Part shown: one piece after another, positions 1,537 through 27,981 of the stretch | Numbering within the stretch: position 1 is the stretch's first letter | Layout of the letters: each line of letters opens with the position of its first letter | NCBI GenBank assembly: GCA_963693365.1 | Contig: CAVNZM010000050.1 | Span: forward strand, 1-27,981 | Direction of reading: 5' to 3' | Length of the DNA: 27,981 nt | Origin: Amoebidium appalachense | Taxonomy: Eukaryota > Protista > Ichthyosporea | Notes under the pieces: model-generated | What the model was told of the DNA's origin: nothing | The model's input: the letters and a program-made list of their open reading frames with translations, nothing else | The model's database searches: none | Translations under genes and position numbers: made by a program

Positions 1537-2288
1537 CAGTTACCATCGTCCCCATTAATTTGCGGACGCCGGGCCTGCAGCCACAGCAGCGCGCGTGCGG
1601 TCAGGGCGCCGGCCACACCGCCAAGCAGGGGACCCAGGAAGAAGATCCAGAGGTGCTTCAGGTCGTGGCTGTCGCCAAACGCGGCGGCCGCAAGGCTGCG
1701 TGCGGGGTTGATGGAGCAGCCGGTGACCGTAACCAACAGCATGTGCATAAGGAACACCACAGACCCGATGGCCAGAGGGGCGACGACGGGCTCGACGTCC
1801 GCGATGTCGGGGTGCTTGCATGCAAGCGACACGGTGAACACCAAGAACGCCGTGGCCAACAGCTCCATGGCCAGCGCCTCGCCCTGGGTGGTCCCGCCGA
1901 CCAGCCCGTTTGTTCCGAACGAGCCGTGGCGGGCGGGAGGCATGCCGGCGCGCAGCAACGCCGTGCCCAGGATACCTCCGGTAAACTGGGCGGTGAAGTA
2001 GAGCGGGAGAAGCACGGGGTCCAGCCAACCGGCGGCAACCATGCCCAGAGTCACCGCCGGGTTGACGTGGGCACCCGACACGGGGCCCAGCACGGCCACC
2101 AGCCCCCCAACAACACCCCCGAACCCGGCGGCCACGGCAAGGACGTCAGCGGCCGATGATGCACCGTGTGAGGTTTCACCCGTGGCCATGGCGATGCCGA
2201 TGGCGGTGAAGGTGAGCAGGGCGGTGCCGCAGAACTCGGCGATGAAGGTGGGTGTGTTGTGCAGGAGGAAGGACTTCACGCTCTGCAT
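1536..2288 (-). CDS. Aquaporin (MIP family), orthodox water-channel type
   Basis: AEF motif in TM1, two NPA boxes (SGAHVNPAVT, TGCSINPARS) and six hydrophobic segments. ATG at 2288 is preferred over the GTG at 2303. Confidence 0.96.
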   Translation of the reverse strand: MQSVKSFLLHNTPTFIAEFCGTALLTFTAIGIAMATGETSHGASSAADVLAVAAGFGGVVGGLVAVLGPVSGAHVNPAVTLGMVAAGWLDPVLLPLYFTAQFTGGILGTALLRAGMPPARHGSFGTNGLVGGTTQGEALAMELLATAFLVFTVSLACKHPDIADVEPVVAPLAIGSVVFLMHMLLVTVTGCSINPARSLAAAAFGDSHDLKHLWIFFLGPLLGGVAGALTARALLWLQARRPQINGDDGN

Positions 2289-2432
2289 GGTTGAGTGTGG
2301 CACACATTTTGTGGGGTGGCGGTTTATTTGGACTTTTTGAGGATCTCGCGGGGGCGCTCACCAGCATGCCAAGGGAAGTGTGTGGGGGGACCAGGAGGGG
2401 GGGGCAGGAGGGGGAACAATTTACAACTTTAG

Positions 2433-6628: not shown

Positions 6629-7537
6629 CTACCCCAGCACGTGCTTCTCCAGGAAGCGCACGGGGTACACCTTGACCGGGCGCAGGTCCCCCTGCACCAT
6701 CTTCAACGTCTCCTCGGGCTCGCAGCCCTCCTGCTCGCGCCACGTGCGTGCGAGCATCCGGCCGACCGTGCTGCTGGACCTGTCGGTGATGCCCCGGTCG
6801 ACGAGGAACTTCCCGACGGTCACGTACCCGCCGATCGCAGACTCTTCGATGGCCGCACGCTCGCCGGCGGGCACGAGCACGTTGGCCACGGCGTCGTTGA
6901 GCAGCATGCGCATGCGCGGGTCCCTGTCGAGGCCGAACTCCTCGAGGAGGCTGCGGTAGCTCTTGATGTTCTCCACACGCATGCGCCCGTTCTCAATCAG
7001 CAAGCGCTCGACCTCGGCCTCCTCCCGCTTCACGCGCAGCCGACGCTCCTCCTCCAGCTCCTCGCGGCGCCGCTTGCGGTCGGGGGTCTCGTCGGTGCCG
7101 TTGCGGAAGAACTCACGCTCCTCGGGGGTGCTGGCGTCGTAGCGGGCCTCGATCTCGGGGATGAGGGAGACGTCGCCGGAAAGTAGCCGGGCTATGTAGG
7201 TGGCACACGTCCTGCGGAACTCGTGGGCGCGCTTGCCGGGAAGCAGGAAGATGATCTCGAGGAGGACACGGAAGGGGGCGATTGGGGTGGGCTTTCCAAC
7301 CCCATTGATCTGGGCGTCCTCAGCCTCGCTGAGGATGTCAACAACACTATGGTCCTTTGATTTCTTGATCTGTGACCATGCCTCGTACATCGCCGCCTTT
7401 CCAATCACCATTGAAATCACATCTAGGACACTTGCCATGTTCTTGTCTCTGTCAATGCGCATAGTGCAACCTTTGAACTGGGGGAACTCCTTCCAAAGAA
7501 GCGACATATCGCCGGTTTTTTTCTGCTCGCCAGCCAT
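6629..7537 (-). CDS. Bro-N/KilA-like viral DNA-binding protein, paralogue 1
   Basis: MRID...ASVLDVI...TPIAPFRVLLEIIFLLPGKRAHEFRR...RLLSGD.SLI.EI, then a coiled coil with PDRKRRR and an antirepressor-like C-terminus (GRMLARTW...G.EP...VKVYP). Closely similar to 22192..23124. Confidence 0.75.
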   Translation of the reverse strand: MAGEQKKTGDMSLLWKEFPQFKGCTMRIDRDKNMASVLDVISMVIGKAAMYEAWSQIKKSKDHSVVDILSEAEDAQINGVGKPTPIAPFRVLLEIIFLLPGKRAHEFRRTCATYIARLLSGDVSLIPEIEARYDASTPEEREFFRNGTDETPDRKRRREELEEERRLRVKREEAEVERLLIENGRMRVENIKSYRSLLEEFGLDRDPRMRMLLNDAVANVLVPAGERAAIEESAIGGYVTVGKFLVDRGITDRSSSTVGRMLARTWREQEGCEPEETLKMVQGDLRPVKVYPVRFLEKHVLG

Positions 7538-9923: not shown

Positions 9924-11429
9924 ATGGCACACGGGCGAGGGAGGGATGTAGTGGAAAGATTTCCCGTGAAGCCGCGCTGCTTTTTCAGGTTCGTAAAGAA
10001 AAATGCAGAACATTTTGTGGAAGAAACGCCGGTCTCCCCCAGCACTCAGACGTACGCATGGACACCGGAAAACGGTTGCCTCTCCCTCTCCCTGGAAAGC
10101 ACAGAACCCGACACGATCCCGGTGTATCTTGCCTGTGTTAAACGTCTCCGGTTCGATGCGCAACAGGATGGCTACTCCGTGAATATCGAGTTCGAGAACC
10201 AAGATAGTCCTGGGATACGCACCTTCGACACAACTTACGATTCGGTTCGAAACTTCATGTTGGACAAGAGGGGCAATGCTTTCAAGGAGATCATGGTGAA
10301 GCACGCCCCATACCAGATCGAGGAGTACAAAAAGAGTACCATCCCTGGGAACCCAACACCCCCATATTTGCAGGAGGATTCGGTAGCAGACCTCTTGTTT
10401 GACAAACTGTACCGCGGGGCCCAACAAATTTCGGGGTCCATAAAAGATTTGATAGGGGTAGGGTCTGTGTGGACTTCGCCTGCAGTAGAGGGGAGAACCA
10501 ATACTATAGTAATGCTACAGACATATCTTCCGAAGTCCACAATTTTCGCCCCGGAGAATTGCTCCGTACACAACCCAACAACGAGTCAATGACTGTCCAG
10601 CAATCGTTTAGGAATCTCAGGAACGATGGCTTCATGACCACCATATCGATGCCTAAATGGAAGTTCTTTTTTAGGAACGAACTCGCGACAATGTTGTTCC
10701 AATGGCTGACTGACCCCCAACGGGTGCCCTACTTTATTATATACACAGGTGAAGTGCACCATGCTTCTGTCATCATACTCGTTTCAGGTGACAAGTCGAG
10801 TATAGTTCTGGAGTTCTTCAATGTCCATGCCCCGAGTAGCACGTTGACAAAAGCCCTTGTCTCATTCATGAGAAGCGCTGATCCCACAGGCAAGCTGAAA
10901 GACATACTTCGATCCCTCAAACCCGAAAGTGTTTGCACTGATTTGCAAAATCTTCATGGAAAAAGGACATTGTACGACGAATTGTTTGACAGAGACGAGG
11001 TGGTCGATGGGGCCTGTGCGTCTTGGTTGAGTATTTACATACTGTTGCGGACTTCACAAGCCGACTGGTCGTCCATACCGGGTGCGGATGGGCACACCAT
11101 AGGCGAGCGGATCTGCAACTTCATCAAGACGAAAATCGCAAGGGATGGGGGATTCCAAGCGGTTTATAAGGTCGGGGGGGACGATCGCGATGTACGGAAA
11201 GCGCCTGGTCGAACTCTACGGGGCTAAGATGTATCAAACTGCGGATTGGTGGGCGCAAGACGGCGTCAATCAACAGGAGCGTTACCGAGAGGTCGTGGAC
11301 ATGGTGCTTTCCAAGAAAGTTCTCGTATTGACCGATGCCGAGCTCAAGGATGCAGGACTGCCAACACGCAAGGACGGCGAGCAACTTGTGAACGAGGTCC
11401 GAGAACAAGCGGCGCGCCTCCTCCCCTGA
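9924..11429 (+). CDS. Putative CE-clan (Ulp1/adenain-like) cysteine protease, paralogue 1; two frameshifts
   Basis: ORFs 9924..10592, 10469..11227 and 11145..11429 align consecutively to the intact paralogue 19856..21367. Breaks fall at the C4 run ~10549-10552 and the G7 run 11174-11180. Motifs HASVIIL...LEFFN...LQ...DGACASW...YILLR. Confidence 0.7.
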
Positions 11430-11471
11430 GGGCATCAAAAGGTCAAGAATTGAGGTGGATTGATCCCTGCC

Positions 11472-15011: not shown

Positions 15012-15045
15012 AGAAGATTCTCAGATATTATCTGTGCACTTGTGT

Positions 15046-16431
15046 ATGGCGTCGAACGTTGAGGCCCAAGACCCTCCCTCCTACATGACAGTGCAACAGA
15101 CGGGAGTGGTTATGTATAAAGGAAAGGCTTACAAGGAGGGTGAACACTTTGACATGACCGATGAGTGTGGGGTCTCGGTGACTCATGCAGAAGTAAGACA
15201 GGGGGGGAAGCTGTGGGTGAATGGGAGTAGATTGGCAGCCAAAATGGGAAAAACCTGGAGTAATTGGTACAGGCTAAAGGGCGCACGAGATTTGGTGGAG
15301 GACCTTGAGAAGCACCAGTCACAATCTTCTCCTTCGATGGGGGAGAACACCTTTGAAGTGCAGGGCAGGACGCAGGGCGGGTCAGGTTTAGTAGAGGACC
15401 TCAAGAAGCGCCAACCACGATCTTCTCCTTCGATTGGGGAGAATACCTTTGAAGTGCAGGGCAGGACGCAGGGCGGGTCAGGTCTAGAGAAATCGCCATC
15501 CATTATCGACCACTCTCGGAATCAGTACCAGGGCATTGACAAGGAGTCCCTTCGGGGTACTTGGATCACTTTGGATTTAGCTACCGCTTTTGTCACTGAT
15601 GCCAATCCTTCGTTTCGTGCAAAGTGGTGTGAGGTCATCGGAGAACTCCATTCAGAAGACGAGGGGTCGGTTAGCAGTGTACACGCAGAAACTGATATGG
15701 TACCAGGAACCACTGGGGGTGTTCAATCCGGGGTTGTAAAGCGCCAGGCAACCGAGAATCCCGCACATAGTGGTCCCGTGGAAAAGATTCGTATCCTAAC
15801 TGATCGCCAACTGGCACGCCTACGTGAAGAGAAGATGTTGACGGTCCCAGCACTTGTTGCAGCTTATGCGGCAAAGCTTCAGGCAGAAGCTGCAATCCTT
15901 GAAGCAGAAGCAGCTCTCCTCGACGCACAGGCATACGTTGCACGAAAGGATGCTGACACTCGCCTGGCTCAAACCGAAGTCGAACGCCTCAAGCTGCGGC
16001 TCGCACCCCCCCTCCCTGATGCCTATATTAAGTTCATGGATGCAACTGCAGAAAACACACGCACCCTGTATCGCTTAGCACAGCGAGGAGATACGTTTGT
16101 GTACGCCGTGCATGTACCTTCGACAGATTCCCACCAACGCCTGAAATTCGGTTTCACAACCAATGTAGAGAAACGCTTTTCGGATTATCGTTCCCTCTTG
16201 GCTGACATGAACAACAAGATCGTCCTGCTGCTGCCTTCCGAAACCCCCCGGCCAATAGAGAAGTTCATAAAGACCGAGCTGCGCGGATGCCGGGTGGGAG
16301 ACAACAAAAACACCGAGCTCTTTGATGTTCCCTTCAACAAGTTTCGCAGCGTACTCCTGGACGTGCTGGATCTTTATGGTCCATGGGGGGAAGGAGTCGC
16401 CGATGACATACAAGAGGCTTTAATGGTCTAA
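15046..16431 (+). CDS. KilA-N domain protein with C-terminal T5orf172/GIY-YIG-like domain
   Basis: WVNGSRLAAKMGKTWSNWYRL...RGTWI..DLA..F.....P.F (KilA-N), a coiled coil, then VYAV...LKFGFTTNVEKRFSDY...IEKFIK...NTELF. Confidence 0.85.
   Translation: MASNVEAQDPPSYMTVQQTGVVMYKGKAYKEGEHFDMTDECGVSVTHAEVRQGGKLWVNGSRLAAKMGKTWSNWYRLKGARDLVEDLEKHQSQSSPSMGENTFEVQGRTQGGSGLVEDLKKRQPRSSPSIGENTFEVQGRTQGGSGLEKSPSIIDHSRNQYQGIDKESLRGTWITLDLATAFVTDANPSFRAKWCEVIGELHSEDEGSVSSVHAETDMVPGTTGGVQSGVVKRQATENPAHSGPVEKIRILTDRQLARLREEKMLTVPALVAAYAAKLQAEAAILEAEAALLDAQAYVARKDADTRLAQTEVERLKLRLAPPLPDAYIKFMDATAENTRTLYRLAQRGDTFVYAVHVPSTDSHQRLKFGFTTNVEKRFSDYRSLLADMNNKIVLLLPSETPRPIEKFIKTELRGCRVGDNKNTELFDVPFNKFRSVLLDVLDLYGPWGEGVADDIQEALMV
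15292..15483 (+). repeat. 96-bp tandem duplication within the KilA-N domain
   Basis: LVEDL.K.Q..SSPS.GENTFEVQGRTQGGSG occurs twice, with DNA identical over ACCTTTGAAGTGCAGGGCAGGACGCAGGGCGGGTCAGGT. Confidence 0.9.
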
Positions 16432-17745: not shown

Positions 17746-17821
17746 TATCTGCACTGCAGATTTTCCCCTCCAACTTAGCAATGAGTTCCTTTGTCCCCTT
17801 CAACTTGTACCAATCAAACCA
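17746..17821 (-). pseudogene. KilA-N gene remnant, copy 1 of a 76-bp direct repeat
   Basis: Encodes WFDWYKLKGTKELIAKLE, similar to WSNWYRLKGARDLVEDLE of 15046..16431. 7 mismatches in 76 bp to 19721-19796. Confidence 0.65.
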
Positions 17822-17943: not shown

Positions 17944-19482
17944 TCAACAGCCCAGTCTGGGCTGCACGCTGGCGGGGACCAGCCCCTCGTATGCGTTCCT
18001 GAACACCTGCGCCGTGTACTTGAACTCGGCAACCTCCGGGCTGTGGGGTACCTCCCGCTCCAGCCAAACCGCCGTGGCCAAGATGATGGTGTAGGCCTGG
18101 CGGGCAGTGATCTCGGTGGACATGACCGCACGTCCCCAGCCGAGTGCTGAGCGCAGCTTGATGGCGCGCTGGATAGCCATGTCAGCTCCGATGACCCCCA
18201 CCACTGCCGTGTCGGGCTTGTCGGTGTATATGTCCACGTTCAGCACCTCGAGCACGTAGCGGCGCACGAGTCCAACAGAGCCCTTGGTAGACCCTCCAAA
18301 CATGGCGGCGGTGACGCTGCGGGGAAGGTTGTACAGGCGGTCACGCAGGAAGGGGTTGCCTGTGCCACCGAGGGCGGAGCTGTCCGGGTCCTCGGGTAGG
18401 ATGCGGGGGGTGAAGGCCTGGGCCGTGCTGTTGAGGGCGCTGGTGAGGCGGGCCACGTGGGACTTGCTGTACTCGATGATGAGCTCCTGCTGCTCAATGA
18501 GGGTGTCCCGGTCCCGGATGGTCTTGTTGCGCTCCTCGATGGTAATGTTCCGGTCCTCGATTGTGCGCTGCATGTTCTGGAGCAGCGTCTGCCAGTAGGC
18601 AGCCCCGTGCTCCTCGGATCCCCCGGCACCCCCGTTCTCCACGTACTCCCCGAACAGGCGAGCGCCGCTGCCCTCGGGGAGGGACTCCTGAAGACGACGG
18701 TTGGCGCGCACCTCGTCAACCAAAGTCTCGTCACCACCCAGGTAGCGCACGATGAGCTCAGCGGCCGCAGCCTTGAAAGCAGCAACCTTGGGACCGGTCA
18801 GGGCCAGGATGATGCGCACCAGCTGCTTAGCATCGGCGACCGGGCGGGGGTTCTGATGATCAACTGAGTCGGAGTATCCGACCGAGTTAATCAAGGACTG
18901 ATCTGCGTCCATCACCTCCTTGAATTTGTCCTTGGGGTTACCATAACCAATCGCCGCTAGAACATCAAACACATCCGCCTTCCGGGGCACGGTGTTGGTG
19001 CAGCGGATGGTCTTGCCGCCCCAGTCTCCCCCGCCCTCCCCGAACTTGAACAGAGTCACAGCCAGCCCGTCGCCGTCGAGGTCCATGCCCGGAACCGCCG
19101 TGGGCAGCTGGCGCATGGCTTCGGCAAGGGCCTTGTTGTCCGCCACCTTCCAGATGCTGATGGAGGGGTCGCCGAGTACACCACGCACGGAGGTGGCGTG
19201 CACCTGTTCACGCAGGCGGACGAGGGACAGGGTCTTGCCGGACGGCAGGGTGCGGGTGTCCTGGGCGACAACCCCAAATCGCTTGGTGTCGCCGAGGGCT
19301 GTGGCGGCACGCTCGTGCAGGTCGGTGTGGTCGGAGAGGAGCGCCCAGTAGCGGATGCGGGAGCGCTCGGGGTCAAGCAGAAGGGTGCGGATGGTGTCCT
19401 CAAGGGATGCGTTCTCCTCCATACTGTCGTCCGTGTCCATGCTGTCGATGTTGTCGCTCTGCATGTTGTTGTTGATGTCCAT
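17944..19482 (-). CDS. Bro-N/KilA-like viral DNA-binding protein, divergent multi-domain paralogue
   Basis: TIRCT...ADVFDVL...PVAD...LTGPKVAAFK...IVRYLGGDETLVDEV followed by a coiled coil. ATG 19482 chosen because it follows the TATA/Inr promoter. Confidence 0.75.
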   Translation of the reverse strand: MDINNNMQSDNIDSMDTDDSMEENASLEDTIRTLLLDPERSRIRYWALLSDHTDLHERAATALGDTKRFGVVAQDTRTLPSGKTLSLVRLREQVHATSVRGVLGDPSISIWKVADNKALAEAMRQLPTAVPGMDLDGDGLAVTLFKFGEGGGDWGGKTIRCTNTVPRKADVFDVLAAIGYGNPKDKFKEVMDADQSLINSVGYSDSVDHQNPRPVADAKQLVRIILALTGPKVAAFKAAAAELIVRYLGGDETLVDEVRANRRLQESLPEGSGARLFGEYVENGGAGGSEEHGAAYWQTLLQNMQRTIEDRNITIEERNKTIRDRDTLIEQQELIIEYSKSHVARLTSALNSTAQAFTPRILPEDPDSSALGGTGNPFLRDRLYNLPRSVTAAMFGGSTKGSVGLVRRYVLEVLNVDIYTDKPDTAVVGVIGADMAIQRAIKLRSALGWGRAVMSTEITARQAYTIILATAVWLEREVPHSPEVAEFKYTAQVFRNAYEGLVPASVQPRLGC

Positions 19483-19516
19483 GTTCTGGGTTGTCTCCGT
19501 CTTGATGGTTGCTGCA

Positions 19517-19558
19517 GAATGATGAATTATGGTCTGGACTGCTCCTTTTATACCTTCA
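19517..19558 (-). promoter_or_regulatory. TATA box + initiator promoter
   Basis: Minus-strand TGAAGGTATAAAAGGAGC (T at 19552), TCATTC with A at 19520 (32 nt). Confidence 0.75.
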
Positions 19559-19720
19559 GGTCTAACCACCGATGGTGCCAAAATCGATGGTGATGGTGAG
19601 TTTGGGCACCAAACTAATGAACCCTGAATTTCAGGGATGATGATTATTGTCTCATTCGGATGTTGATCACAATTGTCGGACGACCCGACAACAGCGAACA
19701 CATATCTGACCGCACAATAT

Positions 19721-19796
19721 TATCTGCACTGCAGATTTTTCCGTCCAACTTGGCAATGAGCTGCTTTGTCCCCTTCAGCTCGTACCAATCAAACCA
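19721..19796 (-). pseudogene. KilA-N gene remnant, copy 2 of a 76-bp direct repeat
   Basis: Encodes WFDWYELKGTKQLIAKLD. No in-frame start found upstream. Confidence 0.65.
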
Positions 19797-19855: not shown

Positions 19856-21367
19856 TCACACACTTGCATTCGGAGTTGTCGCTGCTGCTTTCGCGATGTC
19901 TTCCACAAGCCGCTCTCCATCCCTGCGCCTCGGCAGTCCTGCGGCTTCAAGCTCGGCATCGGTCAACACGACCGTTTTCTTGGTTATTACCTCTCTTATT
20001 ACCTGTGTGTACCGTGGGTCATCAAGATTCGGCTGCACCACATTTATCTCTCCTCCATGCATCTTAGCCCAGTAGAGTTCGGTCAGTTGCTTCCCGTACA
20101 GGGACAGCACGGCCCCGATTTTGTAGACTGCCCGGAATCCTCTGTCCACCTTCTCAAGCTTTGTCGTTATATGATTGCAGACCCGTTCCCCAATGGTGTT
20201 TCCATTGCCCGGTTGGGAACCCCAGTCGAAGCTTGACGTGCGCAGGAGTATGTAGACCATCAACCAGGAGGCACATGCCGAGTCGTGTATTTCGTTTCTA
20301 TCGACAAGTTCCTCATACAAAACCCTCCTAAAACTTGTCTGAAGGCTCTTACATACAGATTCGTGTTGGTAGGTGCGCAGAACTTTCGAGCTTCCAGTGT
20401 AACCGGCCCCCTCAAGGAACATACAGAGGGCGTCAGCGATTAGCCCTGCCGGGGCAGACATGTTAAAGCACTCGACCACCTTGACTTGCGAATCGATAAT
20501 GACAACAGAAGCATGCTCTGGGCTCGACACATGCATTATATAGTAGCGCTCACGTTCTTGGCTTTTCAGCCATGAAGAGAGGTTCGACACGAATGCTTTC
20601 GGGCATCTGAAACCCCACTTTCCTGCTGACACCTTCCAAGTGGACATTTTACCATTGTCCGTCACAACACTGAGTGCTGGTGTGGACTTGGGGACAGCAT
20701 CACTATTATGCTCTATTTTGAGGGATGTGCCAGGGGAAAAACGAACAGATTTTGGCAGATAGGTTTGCAGCAGTACGAAGGTGTTGTCCCGAGACCTGGC
20801 GCCACACCCTGCCACAGCCGGTGAGGCTTCAACGGAGCCAACCCCAATCAGCTCGGTCAGTGACTTCTGAAGATCAACGAGACCGTTGTACCAGTCAAAT
20901 AGAAGTGGCCACGTTTTTTGTATGTCCTCCATCATGTCCGAGGGCGTAGGTCTTCCAGGGACAATAGCCTGTTTGTACTTTTCGGCCACGTAGGGAGCAC
21001 ACTTCACCACAATCGACCCGAAACGGTGCTTCCGCTGGTCCACGAGAAACCGGCTTTTTGAATCATACCTTACAGCAAACTTGTATTCCGTACCAGCTGT
21101 TTGACGCATACAAATAAACAACAATCTGTAGCCACCCAGCCCTGCTTCAAAAACCAGAGATGTAACACAGGTCAGACAGACTGGTTCGACATCATTTTGA
21201 GTGCTCCACAAGTTGATGGAGAGACAGACGTCCCCCATAGCCCACTTGTATGTCTGGGTGTTGCGGGGTTTCAGATGTGCGTCTTCCAACTTGAAATGTT
21301 GGGTATTGCGTTTGACAAACTTGAAGAAGCAGTGGGGCCTTACCGACAATGTCTGTGTTAAAGCCAT
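19856..21367 (-). CDS. Putative CE-clan (Ulp1/adenain-like) cysteine protease, paralogue 2 (intact)
   Basis: 503 aa. HASVVIID...VECFN...LQ...DSACASWLMVYILLR gives His-Asn-(Gln)-Cys order. Collinear with 9924..11429. Confidence 0.7.
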   Translation of the reverse strand: MALTQTLSVRPHCFFKFVKRNTQHFKLEDAHLKPRNTQTYKWAMGDVCLSINLWSTQNDVEPVCLTCVTSLVFEAGLGGYRLLFICMRQTAGTEYKFAVRYDSKSRFLVDQRKHRFGSIVVKCAPYVAEKYKQAIVPGRPTPSDMMEDIQKTWPLLFDWYNGLVDLQKSLTELIGVGSVEASPAVAGCGARSRDNTFVLLQTYLPKSVRFSPGTSLKIEHNSDAVPKSTPALSVVTDNGKMSTWKVSAGKWGFRCPKAFVSNLSSWLKSQERERYYIMHVSSPEHASVVIIDSQVKVVECFNMSAPAGLIADALCMFLEGAGYTGSSKVLRTYQHESVCKSLQTSFRRVLYEELVDRNEIHDSACASWLMVYILLRTSSFDWGSQPGNGNTIGERVCNHITTKLEKVDRGFRAVYKIGAVLSLYGKQLTELYWAKMHGGEINVVQPNLDDPRYTQVIREVITKKTVVLTDAELEAAGLPRRRDGERLVEDIAKAAATTPNASV

Positions 21368-21997: not shown

Positions 21998-22074
21998 AAG
22001 AAACGAAACTTTGAAGGTATGTCGTTGGGCTAACTGCGATTGAAGAAACGAAACTTTGAAGGTATGTTGTTGGG
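21998..22074. repeat. 32-bp direct repeat, period 45 bp
   Basis: AAGAAACGAAACTTTGAAGGTATGT(C/T)GTTGGG at 21998-22029 and 22043-22074. Confidence 0.9.
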
Positions 22075-22116
22075 TCCGGAACAGCAGGTGACAACTTCCC
22101 TCCCTTACCAAACGAG

Positions 22117-22139
22117 CAATTGGTCACTTTGACCAATTG
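22117..22139. other. Perfect hairpin (10-bp stem, 3-nt loop)
   Basis: CAATTGGTCA-CTT-TGACCAATTG, about 50 nt downstream of the 22192..23124 stop. Confidence 0.7.
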
Positions 22140-22191
22140 GTCCCCTGTCGTATCCAATAGATGCTGGTTGGTGTGCCTCGGCCACTATACG

Positions 22192-23124
22192 CTACACAAC
22201 GTGCTTCGCCAGGAAGCTCACAGGGTACAGCTTGACCGTGCGCACGTCCCCGTTGACCACCATCTGCGTCGTCTCGGGCTCGCACCCCATCTCGTCACGC
22301 CAGGCCTTGCTGACCATGCGGCCGAGCGCAGAGGCGGACTTGCACTTGATGCCACGGTCGACCACGAACTTCCCCACCGTGACATAGTCGGAGAGGGTGG
22401 TGCCTTCGATGGCCCGCAGACCCTGGTTGGGGAGCAGCATGTTGGAGACCGAGTCGTTGACGAGCTGTCGCATGCGCGGGTCACGGTCCAGCCCCAGGCG
22501 CTCAAGCAGCGCCTCGTACTGGGCGAGGTTGTCCATAGCCATCTTCTGGTTCTCCCTCTCGAGACGCGTGATCTCCGCCTCCTCCCGGCGCAGACGCAGC
22601 CTCCGCTCCTCCTCCAGCTCCTCGCGGCGGCGCTTGCGGTCAGGGGTCTCGTCCGTGCCGTTGCGGAAGAACTCGCGCTCCTCGGGGGTGCTGTTGTCGT
22701 AGCGGGCCTCGATCTCCACGATGAGAAGCAAATCGCCAGAGAGGAGGCGCGCCATGTACTGGGCAGAAGTCTTACGGAAATCATGAGCGCGCTTGCCAGG
22801 GAGCAGGTAGATGATCTCGAGGAGGGTGCGGAAGGGGGCAACCGGGGTCACATTTCCCTTTCCGTTTATCTTCAGGTCTACAACACCCTGCAAAACCTCG
22901 GTTCTGAACCCGTTACCACCAGTAACGGGTTCACCCGGAGACTTCCGCATGTCAAACCACGCCTTCCTGGCAGTGGTGGAACTGCCCACGACCAATTCAA
23001 TCACATCGAGGACGCTCGCCATCTTGCTGGCTTTGTCGACGCGGACCGTTGCATCCTTGAACTGGGGGAACTCCTTCCACAGAAGCGACATGTCCACCTT
23101 TGAGTTGCTCTGTCCGGTAGCCAT
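22192..23124 (-). CDS. Bro-N/KilA-like viral DNA-binding protein, paralogue 2
   Basis: Collinear with 6629..7537, sharing DMSLLWKEFPQFK, MASVLDVI and STPEEREFFRNGTDETPDRKRRREELEEERRLR. Confidence 0.75.
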   Translation of the reverse strand: MATGQSNSKVDMSLLWKEFPQFKDATVRVDKASKMASVLDVIELVVGSSTTARKAWFDMRKSPGEPVTGGNGFRTEVLQGVVDLKINGKGNVTPVAPFRTLLEIIYLLPGKRAHDFRKTSAQYMARLLSGDLLLIVEIEARYDNSTPEEREFFRNGTDETPDRKRRREELEEERRLRLRREEAEITRLERENQKMAMDNLAQYEALLERLGLDRDPRMRQLVNDSVSNMLLPNQGLRAIEGTTLSDYVTVGKFVVDRGIKCKSASALGRMVSKAWRDEMGCEPETTQMVVNGDVRTVKLYPVSFLAKHVV

Positions 23125-23133
23125 CCTGTGTCA

Positions 23134-23173
23134 GACTGACCCCAGGTGGCCGTGTGTGCTCCTTTTATACCTG
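23134..23173 (-). promoter_or_regulatory. TATA box + initiator promoter
   Basis: Minus-strand CAGGTATAAAAGGAGC (T at 23169), TCAGTC with A at 23137 (32 nt), ATG at 23124. Confidence 0.75.
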
Positions 23174-23271
23174 CGCGTGGCACCCTCAGTCGTGCTGAGG
23201 GCAGGTTGGTGCTTATCCATTGAAATGTCAAGCTGCGTGCCGCGGGTGACAATTTTGAATGGGTTCCTGCG

Positions 23272-23314
23272 CGGGGCTGGGGGGGGCTGGGGGGGGCTGG
23301 GGGTGGCTGGGGGG
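23272..23314 (+). repeat. G-rich tandem repeat, potential G-quadruplex
   Basis: GGGGCT GGGGGGGGCT GGGGGGGGCT GGGGGTGGCT GGGGGG, 10-bp period. Confidence 0.7.
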
Positions 23315-23349
23315 AGCTTGTGAAACTCGTGTGCGCGTGTGCGTTGTGT

Positions 23350-23507
23350 GCCTCGTGTGCCTCGCAGGCCTCGCGCGCGCGGTGGTTCCGGTGGTTCCTT
23401 TATTGGTTCCTCGTGTGTCCCCCACAGCCACCCCCAGCCACCCAGGGCCCCGGGGGGGAGGGGTGCTCACCCCTCGCATGCCTCGCGCGCCTCGCCCGCC
23501 TCGCGGG
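23350..23507 (-). repeat. Two arrays of 9-bp CCTCG(C)nnn repeats
   Basis: 23351-23377 (x3) and 23472-23507 (x4), reading GCGAGG(C) on the minus strand. Confidence 0.8.
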
Positions 23508-23548
23508 GTGGGGTGTGTGTGCGTTTGTGTGTTTCTTCTCGGACAACT

Positions 23549-24217
23549 CTAATTTGCCATGATCTTGCTATACACTATCTTGTGGGCACGGGTGTGTCTG
23601 CCAGGTTTCCCTATAGAGACACGCTCTCCTGCGGGAACAAACGACGACCCGCCCAAAACCCGTGTCAGCACCGTTCCCAGTCTCTTGATCCCCACCTCGC
23701 AATCGTCCAACATATTTATATCAGCCCATTGTCGCATGCAACCGGCCATCCCCGATGTCGTAACCCAGGTCCCATTCTCGATACCAAAGCTGTGTGTTCC
23801 GCGTGCGCCTGTCGCTATGTCCTTTAGAAAGTGTATTTCGTTCGACTCCTGTGCCCTCTCCGTTGGTTTTGTCCGGGTTGTGCAGATGTCCCCGTGACAC
23901 CCCCAAATTAGCCGCAGAGTGTCGGGCTCCACCGTCACAAACACCCCAAGAGATTCTATGGTCTCAACGGCAACCCTATAAACCTCGATGGATGCGTAAC
24001 CAAAGAGGTGCACACGAGCTTGTCGACCAGGGTAGAAGCGTTGGTACGCCTGCACCTGTCCAAGCGCAGCCTTCCACTGTGCCACACGCTTGACCTCGAT
24101 GATCTGCGTGTCCGTGAGCAGGTCGATTCGGCCGGCTGGCGTGACCACTTCGCACTTCCCCCCCTCAATCCTGGCTAACCGATCTCTGACCGACGCTTCA
24201 TCATACGATGCCATCAT
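23549..24217 (-). CDS. PD-(D/E)XK nuclease fused to a D5-like C-terminal (winged-helix-like) domain, copy 1
   Basis: E..VRD.LA..EGG..EV.TPAGRIDLLT...IIEVK...WKAALGQV..Y. The C-terminus aligns with the helicase C-terminus. Confidence 0.8.
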   Translation of the reverse strand: MMASYDEASVRDRLARIEGGKCEVVTPAGRIDLLTDTQIIEVKRVAQWKAALGQVQAYQRFYPGRQARVHLFGYASIEVYRVAVETIESLGVFVTVEPDTLRLIWGCHGDICTTRTKPTERAQESNEIHFLKDIATGARGTHSFGIENGTWVTTSGMAGCMRQWADINMLDDCEVGIKRLGTVLTRVLGGSSFVPAGERVSIGKPGRHTRAHKIVYSKIMAN

Positions 24218-24316
24218 AATAGGGTACCAAAAAAAACACGACTCATTTTTATATTATAAGCCAGTCCGGGTGTTATGAATCCGATATAACACCAATCACA
24301 ACAAAACCACCGACAC

Positions 24317-24430
24317 ACCACCAACCTACCCAAGTTACCACCAACCTACCAACAGTAATCGCGATTTAGATTAGTAGAATTAGACCCAAACGTCGATTTC
24401 ACTTATAAATAGTACTAGGTTGGGTAGGTT
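24317..24430. repeat. Iteron-like direct and inverted repeats around an AT-rich core
   Basis: ACCACCAACCTACC at 24317 and 24337. TTGGGTAGGTT at 24420-24430 is the reverse complement of 24323-24333. Confidence 0.7.
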
Positions 24431-24610
24431 CAGTGGGTTGTTTTGGGGATTGAGTCGAGCTGGGGCAAAAACAAACGAACACCATTCGCGTAGCGGTACA
24501 TGCAGCGCCTCTCCAAACAACATGTGCACAGAAAATGTGTTATCCCCCCCACACCCTTCTTGCCCCGGTGCGTGTTGGGGTCGCGTAGATATTTTCTATA
24601 CCGTATCATA

Positions 24611-26134
24611 ATGGACACATCCGACTCAGCTATGTACTTTACAGATGTGAATCAGCATGCTGTAGAACAGATAAGCAGAAAGAGGTTTGAGGCTTTTGAG
24701 TACCTGGGACCAGACGCCTTTATGGGGCTTCGTATGAACCCAGCCACATGTGACAGTCGAGAATGGACCAGGGAGCAGGTGGAAATGTTCATCGGCGCAA
24801 ATGTCGCACACATCGCCGGAACAACAATGTTTGTGCTTAAAACGTATGATCACGAATTGGGTGTGCACGTTGCAAAGATAGTGAGCAAGCAAGAGATCTT
24901 TGCGACCCTGTCGTTGTTCTCGTTCCGACAACCAGTAGACAAACGTGGTAAGACCGTGAAGCCCCAGCCGCCGATTAATGGCACCGAAATACTCAAGACT
25001 ACCGCAATCCCAATATATACCAAGATCATTTTTGACCCCTCAGATCCTGACCCCAAAACACAAGCACGCAAACCAACCAACATAGATCCCGTGTACCGGC
25101 CGTACAACATATACAGAGGTTTGCGCATCAAGTATGACCCGGAGTATGGTCTGCGGGATGATCTCACCCGTCTCTTCAAGGAGCACGCGTTCAAAGTGCT
25201 TTGCAACGGCCGAGCAGAGGAGTATAACTATCTGCGGACATGGGTTTGTCATCTGTTCCAATATCCTGCAAACAAACCAGGGACTGCACTCCTCTTTGTA
25301 TCAGAGCAGGGAACAGGAAAGAATGTGTGGTGGCAAGCCATCATGGATATCATTTCACCAGAGTACTACGCATATGTCATCCATAGAGAACACATGTCGG
25401 GGAAGTTCAACCAACACCTTGCAAACAAAATCCTGGTGCTGTGCGACGAAGTAACATGGGGCGGATCACATGAAACAAACAACCTCATGAAAGCGCGCAT
25501 CACTCAGCCTACTATGATGCTTGAGAAGAAGGGATGCGATGCCATCAACACAAACTCATATGAGAGATATGTGGTGTTGTCCAACGAGGACTGGCCTGTG
25601 AGAGTGGAAACGAGTGACAGGCGCTGGGCCTGCTTTGGGGTGAGTCCCGAGCGCATTGGAGACCACGAGTATTTCGAGCGGTTTGTTATATACCACAGAC
25701 AACCCGAGGTGTTGAAAGCCATATACCACGACTTCATGAACGAGCCCTGTGTTCCACATACCATGCCGCGCCCCATTGACAACGACACAAAACTAAATAT
25801 CAAATCAATCAGTCGTAGTGATGAGGAACAATTCTTGAAGGATCTCATTGCTCACAAAAACGGGTGTGAAAACTTTACGTTCATTCATGACGGATGCTCT
25901 GTAATACCTTCAGGTCTTTTCGAACTATTTCGGGAATGGCACAAGATGAACGCACGTGACACCAAAACTCCCAGCTTGCGCACTTTTGGAAGTTCTATGA
26001 GGAAAATCCTGGGAAGGACCAAGACAACACTTGCAGCGAAGATCTGCACCTGGCCATCCCACCCACCTATAAATGGAGCTTCGGGAAGGGCTGACTGCTA
26101 CACCATATGTGCCAAAGCTATATCCAAGGCCTGA
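24611..26134 (+). CDS. Superfamily 3 helicase, D5/NrS-1-like, lacking a recognisable primase domain
   Basis: Walker A SEQGTGKN, Walker B LVLCDE, motif C VVLSN, Arg finger SDRRW, upstream YNIYRG and YL..W..H..Q.P..K motifs, and a C-terminal winged-helix-like segment. ATG 24611. Confidence 0.9.
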   Translation: MDTSDSAMYFTDVNQHAVEQISRKRFEAFEYLGPDAFMGLRMNPATCDSREWTREQVEMFIGANVAHIAGTTMFVLKTYDHELGVHVAKIVSKQEIFATLSLFSFRQPVDKRGKTVKPQPPINGTEILKTTAIPIYTKIIFDPSDPDPKTQARKPTNIDPVYRPYNIYRGLRIKYDPEYGLRDDLTRLFKEHAFKVLCNGRAEEYNYLRTWVCHLFQYPANKPGTALLFVSEQGTGKNVWWQAIMDIISPEYYAYVIHREHMSGKFNQHLANKILVLCDEVTWGGSHETNNLMKARITQPTMMLEKKGCDAINTNSYERYVVLSNEDWPVRVETSDRRWACFGVSPERIGDHEYFERFVIYHRQPEVLKAIYHDFMNEPCVPHTMPRPIDNDTKLNIKSISRSDEEQFLKDLIAHKNGCENFTFIHDGCSVIPSGLFELFREWHKMNARDTKTPSLRTFGSSMRKILGRTKTTLAAKICTWPSHPPINGASGRADCYTICAKAISKA

Positions 26135-26199
26135 CCCCATTCTTTTTCTCCTGATATTCTCATTATGTTCTCCTTATACTAATTAGCATAATGGGAACA

Positions 26200-26430
26200 T
26201 AAGGGGATAATCATTGGATAATTGTCATGCGTTAATTAACAAGAACCAATCAAAATTAAGCTTGTTAACTCTACTACTATAAATGGCTAATTAATAAGGG
26301 GATAAGGAGAATAAGGGGATGGTTAAAGCTATGGGGGTTGCAGCCTTTGGTGCCATTTCATTGGCTAATGGGGGGATGGGATGCCTTTGCAAAATGGTCT
26401 GAAGTATCCCCTTATTCGGCATACCCCTTA
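26200..26430. repeat. TAAGGGGAT motif cluster in AT-rich intergenic DNA
   Basis: Direct copies at ~26200, 26295 and 26312. Inverted copies TATCCCCTTA (26405) and ATACCCCTTA (26421). Confidence 0.7.
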
Positions 26431-26465
26431 CGGTGGCATATTTTTTCTTTCCTACTTATGAGAGG

Positions 26466-26933
26466 ATGTATTCAGCGTTTCTGTGCGAGTGGGAGACCTG
26501 TGGGAGACCCTTTGAGAGCAACGCAGCCCTCCAGCGACATCGTCTTACGCACACGGGTCAGAGGCCACATGTATGCCCTTGGCCTGGATGTTTCAGGGGG
26601 TTTACACAACGTTCTACTTTGGAGCTTCATTATCGGCTGCACACTGGGGAACTTCCTTTTCAGTGTAACTGGGAGGGATGCAAGGCCTCGTTCAGATGTA
26701 AGAGTAAGCTGAAGATGCATCAACGAAACCATGCAGAGGCGGGGACTTATAAATGTACATGGGATGGATGCGAGGCCAGTTTCAATACCAGAGATGCCAT
26801 CAACACTCACATAAATCGGCATACGGGAGAACGGCCACACAAATGTAAAGAGCCAGGATGCTCTGCCTCATATCGCCAGCGGGCGAGCCTTGCGTATCAT
26901 GTTCGCCATCACCATCATAATAAAACCAAATGA
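26466..26933 (+). CDS. C2H2 zinc-finger protein (five fingers)
   Basis: Five Cx4C-x12-Hx3-4H units (four with CxW, e.g. CPWPGC) with TGQRP, TGELP and TGERP linkers. ATG 26466. Confidence 0.95.
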   Translation: MYSAFLCEWETCGRPFESNAALQRHRLTHTGQRPHVCPWPGCFRGFTQRSTLELHYRLHTGELPFQCNWEGCKASFRCKSKLKMHQRNHAEAGTYKCTWDGCEASFNTRDAINTHINRHTGERPHKCKEPGCSASYRQRASLAYHVRHHHHNKTK

Positions 26934-27031
26934 ACAAATACAAGGGCGGCATGCGAGGCTTGGGGCATGCGAGGCACATGCGGCCTGTGAGCCCTGTGCG
27001 GCTTGCCTGCTGATTTTATGTACACTCTTAC

Positions 27032-27711
27032 ATGATGGCCACCTACAACGAGGCGTTCGTCAGAGACAAATTGGCACGGATCGAGGGGGGAAACGCGAAG
27101 TGTCGACCCCTGCCGGCCGGATCGACCTACTCACGGACACGGACATCATCGAGGTCAAGCGCGCACCACAGTGGAAGGCCGCTATGGGACAGGTGCTGGC
27201 CTACAGGCAGTACTATCCCAACCACCAACCACGGGTCCATTTGTTTGACTACGTGTCGGCGGATGTGTACAAAACAGCAATTGAAACAATCACATCCTTC
27301 AACATACTTGTGACACTGGAACCTGATACAATGCAGCTCGTATGGGGTAAACGGCCCCAACAGTCCAAGCCACAACCCAGTTGTTCCATTTCTGCAGAGC
27401 TGCAGTTTTTGAAGGATATGGCAACTGGATATGGTGTACAGCGGGTGATCGAAGACGGAGCGTGGGTGACTACAGAAGGGATGATGGAGCTGATGCGCAC
27501 CTGGGCCAGTGCAAGGGGAATGGGTGCAGAACTTGAGGTGGGATCTAGGAGACTGGGATCTTGTCTCAAGAGGGTGCTAGGTAAGAGGGTGTCGGTCTAT
27601 GCAGACATGGTGAAAATAGGCAAACCCACATCAGAAAGAACAGGGGCCTACCGTTTCAACAAAAGCAAGGTCTTGGACTTTGATGCAAGTTGTCTGGTCA
27701 ATGATCAATAA
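27032..27711 (+). CDS. PD-(D/E)XK nuclease fused to a D5-like C-terminal domain, copy 2; one frameshift
   Basis: MMATYNEAFVRDKLARIEGG continues as KREVSTPAGRIDLLT...IIEVK if one G is added to the G6 run at 27085-27090. Collinear with 23549..24217. Confidence 0.8.
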
Positions 27712-27799: not shown

Positions 27800-27981
27800 A
27801 TGTCTGCGGTAGGCTACGACGAGGCGTTCGTGCGCGAGCGACTGGCCGAGCTCGAGGACGGGGTGTGCGGGGTGCCCACACGGGCCGGCCGGATCGACGT
27901 GCTGACGAGCACGCAGGTCATCGAGGTCCAGCGCGCGTCGCAGTGGAAGACGGCGATCGGAAACGTGCTCGCATACAGCCA
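27800..27981 (+). CDS. PD-(D/E)XK nuclease paralogue, copy 3 (runs off the window)
   Basis: Translated by hand: MSAVGYDEAFVRERLAELEDGVCGVPTRAGRIDVLTSTQVIEVQRASQWKTAIGNVLAYS. Confidence 0.8.
   Translation, partial: MSAVGYDEAFVRERLAELEDGVCGVPTRAGRIDVLTSTQVIEVQRASQWKTAIGNVLAYS

What the first reader, a model, noticed from the sequence alone, without database searches (positions are those of the whole stretch)
23549..27711. PD-(D/E)XK nucleases share their C-terminal domain with the SF3 helicase they flank
Seen: the helicase C-terminus (from ~25817) reads SDEEQFLKDL...IHDGCSVIPSGLFELFREW...RTFGSSMRKILG. Nuclease 1 reads SNEIHFLKDI...IENGTWVTTSGMAGCMRQW...KRLGTVLTRVLG, and nuclease 2 reads SAELQFLKDM...IEDGAWVTTEGMMELMRTW...RRLGSCLKRVLG. 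Motif order and spacing are conserved. Known: D5-family helicases end in a winged-helix DNA-binding domain, and SF3 initiators such as parvovirus Rep/NS1 pair a helicase with a nuclease. Inference: a primase-less helicase and nucleases carrying the same targeting domain could act on the same DNA site, as a split initiator, an origin nicking/resolution system, or a competitor of the helicase. I do not know of this fusion being described, but could not search for it.
Basis: partly seen in the sequence, partly recalled or inferred. Interest (0 to 1): 0.85.

Follow-up and report, generated by a model that had tools for sequence, protein, structure and literature searches.

The report
Nucleases stealing rival helicases' DNA-binding tails
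In a stretch of likely giant-virus DNA, two predicted nucleases end in the same kind of small winged-helix domain as the helicase between them, but their copy is closer to a different helicase of the family, so they likely cut the replication origins of rival elements rather than assist their neighbour.

Summary
Nuclease 1 (23549-24217, -), nuclease 2 (27032-27711, +, frame broken near 27085) and the primase-less DUF5906/NrS-1-type SF3 helicase (24611-26134) share a ~100-aa C-terminal winged-helix (wH) domain (0/5000 shuffles; hhalign 89%; same AF2 topology in nuclease 1 and the helicase). The N-domain has a PD-(D/E)XK fold with intact catalytic residues. The fusion is rare: 5 other clusters among 1.84 billion representatives; two appear to lie on a contig with a helicase. 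The 'same targeting domain' reading fails: the nuclease wH domains are 24-29% identical to the neighbour but 37-50% to another helicase subfamily (AU p=7e-6). Across the family, one nuclease clade carries wH domains from at least three helicase subfamilies (monophyly rejected, p=1e-5), once in reversed order. A better origin candidate than 24218-24610 lies directly downstream of the helicase: an iteron-like array (26147-26431) in the window's most AT-rich DNA. Best reading (~0.5): origin-directed or homing-type nucleases retargeted by capturing rival helicases' wH, like phage ICP1 Odn but from different parts and in a eukaryotic virus. DNA binding and cleavage are untested.

The parts
23549..24217 (-). 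Nuclease 1, 222 aa: PD-(D/E)XK-fold domain (aa 7-97; E7, D32, E41-x-K43, Q54-xxx-Y58), disordered linker, C-terminal winged helix (aa 125-221, nt 23845-23555)
24218..24610 (.). Intergenic region between the divergent nuclease 1 and helicase genes; short direct repeats at 24317-24350 and an 11-bp inverted pair 24323-24333 / 24420-24430. In contigs of two runs, the part up to 24484 continues into other sequence
24611..26134 (+). Primase-less SF3 helicase, 507 aa: collar-like N-part, DUF5906 ATPase (aa 229-338), C-terminal winged helix (aa 403-506, nt 25817-26128)
26147..26431 (.). Iteron-like array, candidate origin: 9 matches to ATAAGGRGA (at most 1 mismatch); three on - at 11-bp spacing, two on + at 11-bp spacing, an AT-rich stretch, three on +, one on -. 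Holds the lowest-GC 100-bp windows of the whole window (30%)
   Evidence: a paralogous helicase contig keeps blocks 26283-26318 and 26407 onward
26433..26933 (+). C2H2 zinc-finger protein (five fingers by sequence); role unknown
27032..27711 (+). Nuclease 2: same architecture as nuclease 1 (about 52% identical); reading frame changes near 27083-27090 in the window; winged helix from nt 27391
   Evidence: contigs of 4 of 4 runs laid differ in length from the window at this place
27800..27981 (+). Nuclease 3, cut by the window end; same nuclease clade, but with E-V-Q in place of E-x-K; C-terminus not visible

Best explanation
These are predicted PD-(D/E)XK nucleases whose C-terminal winged helix was likely captured, several times independently, from paralogous SF3 helicases, and which likely use it to bind and cut at the iteron origins of other helicase types than their own neighbour. 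Shown: the shared domain, the two folds (as models), intact catalytic motifs, one nuclease clade with wH domains from at least three helicase subfamilies, a non-cognate wH in both window nucleases, and an iteron-like AT-rich array right behind the helicase. Inferred: (1) helicase plus array form a SaPI-Rep-like replicon or mobile cassette in a giant-virus-type genome that holds several such paralogous cassettes; (2) the helicase wH reads its own iterons; (3) a nuclease carrying a rival's wH cuts the rival's origin and spares its own; (4) the break either removes the rival (Odn-like exclusion) or is repaired from the nuclease-flanked cassette (collaborative homing, 'HEG island'); (5) origin turnover then selects for renewed wH capture.
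For: Nuclease domains of 6 wH fusions form one clade among 66 homologues (SH-aLRT 99, quick tree; again with 49 rows), whereas their wH domains do not (p-AU 1.1e-5; 2e-8, and 1.4e-6 without the reversed fusion). Best helicase matches: nuclease 2 to P0051 50% vs neighbour 29%; nuclease 1 to P0051 37% vs 24%; reversed fusion P0049 to P0033 63%; P0050 to P0032 47% vs its apparent contig-mate P0059 28%; partial fusion P0048 to P0035 58% while its nuclease end matches P0057. The ATPase tree separates the same helicase subfamilies. Catalytic D, E, K, Q, Y are invariant in 6 of 6 rows of the fusion alignment. Third-position changes dominate between nucleases 1 and 2 in both domains. Iteron-like array downstream of the helicase, laid out as described for SaPI ori (PMC9371898 passages). 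Several diverged helicase paralogs are present in the same sequencing runs. The cassette has GC3 0.49-0.62 vs 0.82-0.96 for most core-like genes. The same pattern of one nuclease with swapped initiator domains is published for Odn-like phage proteins (PMC10055350 section 24).
Against: No binding or cleavage data. In mpox E5 no role of the wH in origin binding was found (PMC12137749 passage), so wH sequence specificity is not general for this superfamily. The non-cognate pattern is statistically firm only for the window: P0050+P0059 and P0055+P0032+P0002 clades are not rejected (p 0.29 and 0.37), and P0055's best match is its apparent contig-mate (31%). No P0051-type helicase or its origin was seen in the window's own genome (no genome held). 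The nuclease clade may only reflect one virus lineage, and this nuclease domain fuses promiscuously with KilA-N, Bro-N, Rha and HTH domains, so capture may be opportunistic. wH trees rest on about 110 columns with mostly open forks. The array could be a transcript-end hairpin (RNA z -3.3) or sites for the zinc-finger protein. Several non-core genes elsewhere in the window also have low GC3.
Confidence: 0.5

Rival explanations
1. Opportunistic domain shuffling: a selfish, multi-copy nuclease module takes whichever DNA-binding domain lies nearby; the helicase wH serves as a general DNA anchor or regulator, with no rival-origin targeting.
For: The same nuclease domain is fused to KilA-N, Bro-N, Rha, MarR-like HTH and other domains in cyanobacteria, phages and giant viruses, and in L020 to the family that has three members in this window. 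Helicase paralogs are numerous and adjacent, hence easy donors. A wH-only protein (P0060) exists. E5 wH has no shown origin role (PMC12137749).
Against: All 6 complete members found of this nuclease clade carry a helicase-derived wH, re-acquired at least three times, once in reverse order. This count is biased, because they were found with the wH profile. An iteron-like array sits exactly where SaPI-type wH initiators have their origin.
Confidence: 0.25
2. Split initiator: nuclease and helicase act on the same origin, the nuclease nicking or resolving it for the primase-less helicase, as proposed for mobile helicase and T5orf172 pairs in entomopoxviruses.
For: Nucleases flank the helicase; two more apparent helicase-nuclease contigs (chance of 3 length matches about 2e-5 under a fitted length model). 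The helicase lacks a primase. PMC11296320 section 9 proposes that a separate nicking nuclease could replace an HUH domain. The longer P0051/P0063 helicases have an extra N-terminal domain that the window helicase lacks.
Against: The window nucleases' wH is not the neighbour's type (p-AU 6.8e-6). Nuclease 1 with its upstream DNA also continues into other sequence at 24484 in contigs of two runs. PD-(D/E)XK enzymes form no covalent 5' adduct as HUH initiators do (established knowledge, recalled). Only 1 of 86 helicase loci and 0 of 46 nuclease loci of more distant relatives hold both genes.
Confidence: 0.13
3. Protein-level regulator: the captured wH pairs with a helicase wH (as phage P4 Cnr does with the alpha origin-binding domain) or competes for its site, bringing a nuclease to, or blocking, an assembled helicase.
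For: The helicase tail matches the P4 origin-binding domain weakly (1ka8, Z 4.5, rmsd 3.0, 68 aligned). wH homo/heterodimer regulation in P4 is named in a reference title seen in PMC12137749; details recalled. The wH-only relative P0060 fits such a role.
Against: Conserved catalytic residues in all complete fusions argue for cutting rather than only blocking.
Confidence: 0.1

Closest known systems
Odn (Gp88) and Gp5 of vibriophage ICP1 and Odn-like coliphage proteins (PMC8263062: abstract and passages; PMC10055350: abstract, sections 22 and 24)
   Same: A mobile-type nuclease fused to the origin-binding domain of another element's initiator (Odn 42% identical to PLE RepA_N; here 50% to P0051); homologous nucleases carry different captured domains, each matching a different initiator; frameshifted alleles occur.
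   Different: PD-(D/E)XK instead of T5orf172/GIY-YIG; SF3-helicase C-terminal wH instead of RepA_N; eukaryotic-virus context; donor and neighbour are paralogs of one helicase family; activity untested.
Mobile accessory D5-like helicases with T5orf172 genes in entomopoxvirus terminal repeats and PLV end modules (PMC11296320: abstract, passages, section 9 part 1 of 2)
   Same: Multi-copy accessory SF3 helicases next to nuclease genes in Nucleocytoviricota; collaborative homing or nuclease conflict proposed as drivers of replicon turnover.
   Different: Different nuclease superfamily and NrS-1-type helicase; the word 'winged' does not occur in that main text and no shared domain is described in the parts read; supplements not seen.
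SaPI Rep/PriRep5 and NrS-1 C-terminal region (PMC9371898 passages; PDB 6k9c, 7ola, 7pds)
   Same: Collar + SF3 ATPase + C-terminal wH (Foldseek E about 1e-6 to NrS-1, VIA Z 11.6); short repeats in both orientations around an AT-rich core directly downstream of the gene.
   Different: No primase gene recognised upstream; 9-bp rather than 5-6-bp units; no nuclease with a shared wH described in the passages read.
KilA-N / Bro-N / Rha / HTH proteins with the same unnamed C-terminal PD-(D/E)XK-like domain (e.g. BFVD hits in Tetraselmis virus 1, FirrV-1-A34, Mimiviridae KilA-N proteins)
   Same: Same nuclease domain (structure E 1e-9 to 1e-5, 26-38% identity); general design of DNA-binding module + nuclease.
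   Different: Here the nuclease is usually N-terminal and the partner is a helicase-derived wH; none of 132 fetched loci has this wH.

Membership tests
PD-(D/E)XK (restriction-endonuclease fold) nucleases | alpha-beta-beta-beta-alpha-beta core | tested here: met
   AF2 H7-18, E21-26, E29-34, E38-44, H45-59, E66-72, pLDDT about 90; top VIA rows are AF1548 Z 8.8 rmsd 2.9/93, PspGI 8.1, Can2 7.9, NucS 7.9, CdiA-CT 7.8
PD-(D/E)XK (restriction-endonuclease fold) nucleases | Catalytic E...D...(D/E)xK, plus QxxxY | tested here: met
   D32, E41, K43, Q54, Y58 in 6 of 6 aligned fusions; E7 in 5 of 5 that cover it. Nuclease 3 has Q for K
PD-(D/E)XK (restriction-endonuclease fold) nucleases | Match to a curated family model | tested here: inconclusive
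   No Pfam or PHROG nuclease family hit
PD-(D/E)XK (restriction-endonuclease fold) nucleases | Metal-dependent DNA cleavage | not testable with these tools
   needs assay
SF3 helicase, DUF5906/NrS-1 type | DUF5906 domain, Walker A/B, motif C, arginine finger | tested here: met
   PF19263 71.4 bits vs cut-off 27.6; EQGTGKN, LCDE, LSN, DRR in the sequence; fold matches NrS-1 C-terminal region
D5/NrS-1 primase-helicase | N-terminal primase-polymerase domain | tested here: not met
   507 aa; model residues 51-500 align to NrS-1 303-718; five closest homologues are 496-521 aa
Pox_D5 / P4-alpha-type C-terminal winged helix | Winged-helix topology after the SF3 domain | tested here: met
   helicase 400-507 matches TcpK Z 5.6, RFX Z 5.2-5.4, P4 origin-binding domain Z 4.5 (middling Z values)
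Pox_D5 / P4-alpha-type C-terminal winged helix | Pfam PF03288 match | tested here: inconclusive
   3 of 8 tails match weakly, best E 0.0063; nuclease 1 tail none
Pox_D5 / P4-alpha-type C-terminal winged helix | Sequence-specific origin binding | not testable with these tools
   shown for SaPI Rep (PMC9371898), not found for mpox E5 (PMC12137749)
Odn (origin-directed nuclease) | Nuclease fused to a domain taken from a non-self replication initiator | tested here: met
   (that the donor helicase is an initiator is inferred)
Odn (origin-directed nuclease) | T5orf172 (GIY-YIG) nuclease domain and RepA_N domain | tested here: not met
   restriction-endonuclease fold and SF3-type wH instead; works-like claim only
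Odn (origin-directed nuclease) | Iteron-dependent cleavage of the rival origin | not testable with these tools
   needs assay; donor-type origin DNA not available
SaPI-type Rep/ori module | Short repeats in both orientations around an AT-rich core directly downstream of the helicase gene | tested here: met
SaPI-type Rep/ori module | Primase gene upstream or fused | tested here: inconclusive
   no primase family hit among 24 window proteins scanned; rest of genome not held
Parvovirus Rep/NS1-type initiator | HUH nickase domain on the same chain as the SF3 helicase | tested here: not met
   separate genes; nuclease has a restriction-endonuclease fold
Nucleocytoviricota (free or endogenous) | Core marker genes (major capsid protein, PolB, A32, VLTF3) | tested here: inconclusive
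   none among the 24 proteins scanned; supportive only: Pox_A22 E 0.0018, KilA-N + T5orf172, NUDIX, giant-virus structural neighbours

The most novel reading that the evidence does not exclude
A eukaryotic giant-virus lineage carries competing helicase-plus-origin cassettes, each armed with nucleases aimed at another cassette type's origin; one nuclease lineage is retargeted again and again by copying the origin-reading domain of the rival. This is an Odn-like acquired specificity built independently from different parts, and 26147-26431 is a concrete, testable origin.
Probability: 0.3. Interest if true: 0.85.

Novelty: new variant of a known kind. Interest (0 to 1): 0.62.

Why it matters
If true, capture of a rival initiator's origin-binding domain by a nuclease is a convergent weapon that reaches from phage-satellite conflicts into eukaryotic DNA viruses, using a different nuclease superfamily and a different initiator. 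It would explain why accessory SF3 helicases in these viruses are multi-copy and sit next to nucleases. It also gives a small kit (three 100-aa domains and a 285-bp repeat array) to test a standing question: whether the D5-family winged helix reads a specific origin in viruses of eukaryotes.

Tried and rejected
No whole genome is held, so the donor-type helicase could not be sought in the same genome. Single-protein locus searches in viral contigs found nothing. The one metagenome scan returned 20 loci with the nuclease domain, none with the wH. None of 132 fetched loci holds the wH profile. tblastn of nuclease 1 in phages: no match. PDB sequence searches with the wH and nuclease profiles: nothing with E below 0.04. 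Foldseek PDB on nuclease 1: no match at E 0.001 or better; the C-domain was barely tested (Dcc1 Z 6.1, FurB Z 5.4). The 'longer' homologue search with the wH profile returned only 3 known proteins, as candidates were capped. No RNA holder was listed. Parts of the helicase without cover in run X16 are not used as evidence. The careful nuclease tree did not finish; quick trees are quoted (18 rows dropped as long branches or near-duplicates). P0058 (2680 aa, repetitive) was dropped as a false hit. P0048 was first treated as a helicase fragment and labelled so in the trees; one search shows it is a partial nuclease fusion. 24218-24610 as origin: weak (DNA fold z -1.3). The iteron pattern was derived from the region itself, so its enrichment figures are post hoc; one search is the fair test, and there 23125-23548 also has significant (GC-rich) repeats among 13 regions examined. 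Literature searches for this fusion found no description in the listings or passages seen; subscription papers, Iyer et al. on KilA-N/Bro-N shuffling (recalled) and Monttinen et al. 2021 (seen only as a citation) were not read, and no supplements were opened. PMC11244446 (passages): 0 occurrences of 'helicase'. PMC3671162 (passages): nothing on a shared domain.


Full report
Context. The window holds intron-less genes typical of Nucleocytoviricota-type DNA: a weak Pox_A22 resolvase match, a KilA-N + T5orf172 protein, a NUDIX protein and an aquaporin. No core marker was among the 24 proteins scanned, so 'giant virus, free or endogenous' is likely but not shown. No genome is held. Twenty public runs in at least four studies hold the stretch or part of it. 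The only named relatives of the domain in question come from Daphnia assemblies (P0062, P0052). The host is unknown.

Observation. The three tails align far above chance (0 of 5000 shuffles for each pair; whole-protein tests 0 of 3000), and by profile (89%, E 2.2e-6). AF2 models give winged-helix topology for helicase 404-506 and nuclease 1 126-221. The helicase tail aligns to RFX, TcpK, ORC and the P4 origin-binding domain at Z 4.5-5.6, and 3 of 8 tails touch Pfam Pox_D5 weakly. The helicase is a DUF5906/NrS-1-type SF3 ATPase with collar and wH and no primase. The nuclease domain has the restriction-endonuclease fold with D32, E41, K43 and QxxxY invariant in the fusions. Nuclease 2 changes frame near 27083-27090 in the window. 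Contigs of 4 of 4 runs differ in length at this place, so the break may be an assembly error, or those contigs may be paralogs; this is not settled. Nuclease 3 is cut by the window end.

How common is the fusion? The nuclease domain is a widely shuffled module: 28 homologues, mostly with HTH or KilA-N partners, and 46 loci with KilA-N, Bro-N-like, Rha-like and other partners (partner names partly read by eye), with giant-virus proteins as nearest structures. A profile of the wH run against 1.84 billion representatives gave 14 hits: 5 helicases, 2 tail fragments, 4 complete nuclease fusions (P0050, P0055, P0057 and P0049 in reversed order), 1 partial fusion (P0048), 1 wH-only protein and 1 repetitive false hit. 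P0055 and helicase P0032 share source and contig length (7624), as do P0050 and helicase P0059 (3198), and two helicases (5334); three such matches have a chance of about 2e-5 under a fitted length model. This suggests linkage, but the DNA could not be fetched. Among distant relatives, linkage is rare: 1 of 86 helicase loci and 0 of 46 nuclease loci hold both, and none has this wH.

The key result is whose wH the nucleases carry. Nuclease 2 is 50% identical to helicase P0051's tail and 29% to its neighbour's; nuclease 1 is 37% and 24%; P0049 is 63% to P0033; P0050 is 47% to P0032 and 28% to its apparent neighbour P0059; P0057 is 34% to P0051; P0055 is 31% to P0032; P0048 is 58% to P0035. Monophyly of the fusion wH domains is rejected (p-AU 1.1e-5; 2e-8), and so is a clade of the window's three (6.8e-6). 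For the two other apparent pairs, cognate clades are not rejected (p 0.29 and 0.37). The recognition helix and wing of nucleases 1 and 2 follow the P0051/P0052/P0054 pattern. The nuclease domains of the six complete fusions form one clade (SH-aLRT 99, quick trees), and the ATPase tree separates the same helicase subfamilies that the wH tree does. One nuclease lineage has therefore acquired a helicase wH at least three times. The alignments are short (about 110 and 99 columns) and most other forks are open.

Where is the likely DNA site? Directly behind the helicase stop, 26135-26432 contains the lowest-GC 100-bp windows of the whole window and repeats that no shuffle matched (0 of 300 for 6-, 7-, 8- and 10-mers). 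Nine of the 14 window matches to ATAAGGRGA fall there, in opposite orientations and with 11-bp spacing in the first block (pattern chosen post hoc). A diverged helicase paralog in runs X1 and X4 keeps two of the repeat blocks while the DNA between differs, and several helicase paralogs are present in those runs. This is the layout described for SaPI origins, where the Rep wH reads iterons downstream of the gene (PMC9371898, passages). Against it: the first block also folds as an RNA hairpin (z -3.3), the next gene is a zinc-finger protein that could use these sites, and no origin role was found for the mpox E5 wH (PMC12137749, passages).

Mechanism. I favour (0.5) origin-directed or homing-type nucleases that take their specificity from rival paralogous helicase-origin cassettes, cut there, and so exclude the rival or spread their own cassette by repair. 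The architecture and phylogeny are shown; DNA specificity, cutting and the outcome are inferred. Rivals are opportunistic shuffling (0.25), a split initiator at the same origin (0.13), and a wH-wH regulator (0.1).

Comparison. It works like ICP1 Odn and its coliphage counterparts, where homologous nucleases carry different initiator domains (PMC8263062, abstract and passages; PMC10055350, abstract and sections 22 and 24), but it is not a member: neither T5orf172 nor RepA_N. Mobile accessory D5-like helicases beside T5orf172 genes in entomopoxviruses, with collaborative homing proposed, are in print (PMC11296320, abstract, passages and section 9 part 1), without a shared domain in the parts read. 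Earlier unchecked notes of this scan report D5 tails on Bro-N/T5orf172 genes in other giant viruses, there matching the local D5; I did not test these. They lower the surprise of tail sharing as such. The PD-(D/E)XK partner, the repeated capture across helicase subfamilies, the reversed fusion and the non-cognate match are what is new here. Nine literature searches showed no description of this fusion; supplements and subscription papers were not seen and could bear on that. Verdict: new variant of a known kind, interest 0.62.

Noticed in passing
window 6629-7537 (-), 17944-19701 (-), 22192-23124 (-): Three members of an unnamed family with no Pfam or PHROG match; in locus L020 the same domain is fused to the PD-(D/E)XK domain of this report. 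Each has a TATAAAAG(G)AGC-like box near its start (7581, 19552, 23169). Many variant contigs lie on 22000-23400.
   Followed up: partly
window 26949, 26965, 27743 (+) and 23481 (-): Motif GCATGCGAG occurs four times: before nucleases 2 and 3, and between nuclease 1 and the 22192-23124 gene; possible promoter or cassette-end element.
   Followed up: no
proteins P0051 and P0063, first ~150 aa: The helicases whose wH is closest to nucleases 1 and 2 carry an extra N-terminal domain with no family match; by eye it resembles a degenerate HUH/Rep palm domain (recalled motifs, untested).
   Followed up: no
L058:2126-3886: A giant-virus-MAG DUF5906 helicase with an extra C-terminal segment that looks like another restriction-fold nuclease (by eye), and a separate copy of this report's nuclease domain 1 kb upstream.
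   Followed up: no
window 9924-11438 (+) and 19856-21367 (-): Two homologous genes with no family match; the first appears broken into three ORFs (9924-10592, 10469-11227, 11145-11429) relative to the intact second one.
   Followed up: no
window 15034-16431 (+): KilA-N + T5orf172 protein with an internal 96-bp duplication (15278-15469); it does not carry the wH.
   Followed up: partly
window 103-1536 (-), 1536-2303 (-): A cysteine-rich protein with a C-terminal membrane segment, recalling poxvirus entry-fusion proteins (by eye; weak DUF5773), next to a complete aquaporin gene (MIP 155.7 bits).
   Followed up: no
window 17746-17821 and 19721-19796: A 76-bp repeat (91%) flanks the 17944-19701 gene; it reads like a KilA-N fragment on the - strand.
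   Followed up: no
protein P0060/P0069: A 139-aa stand-alone protein consisting almost only of this winged helix; candidate Cnr-like regulator.
   Followed up: no
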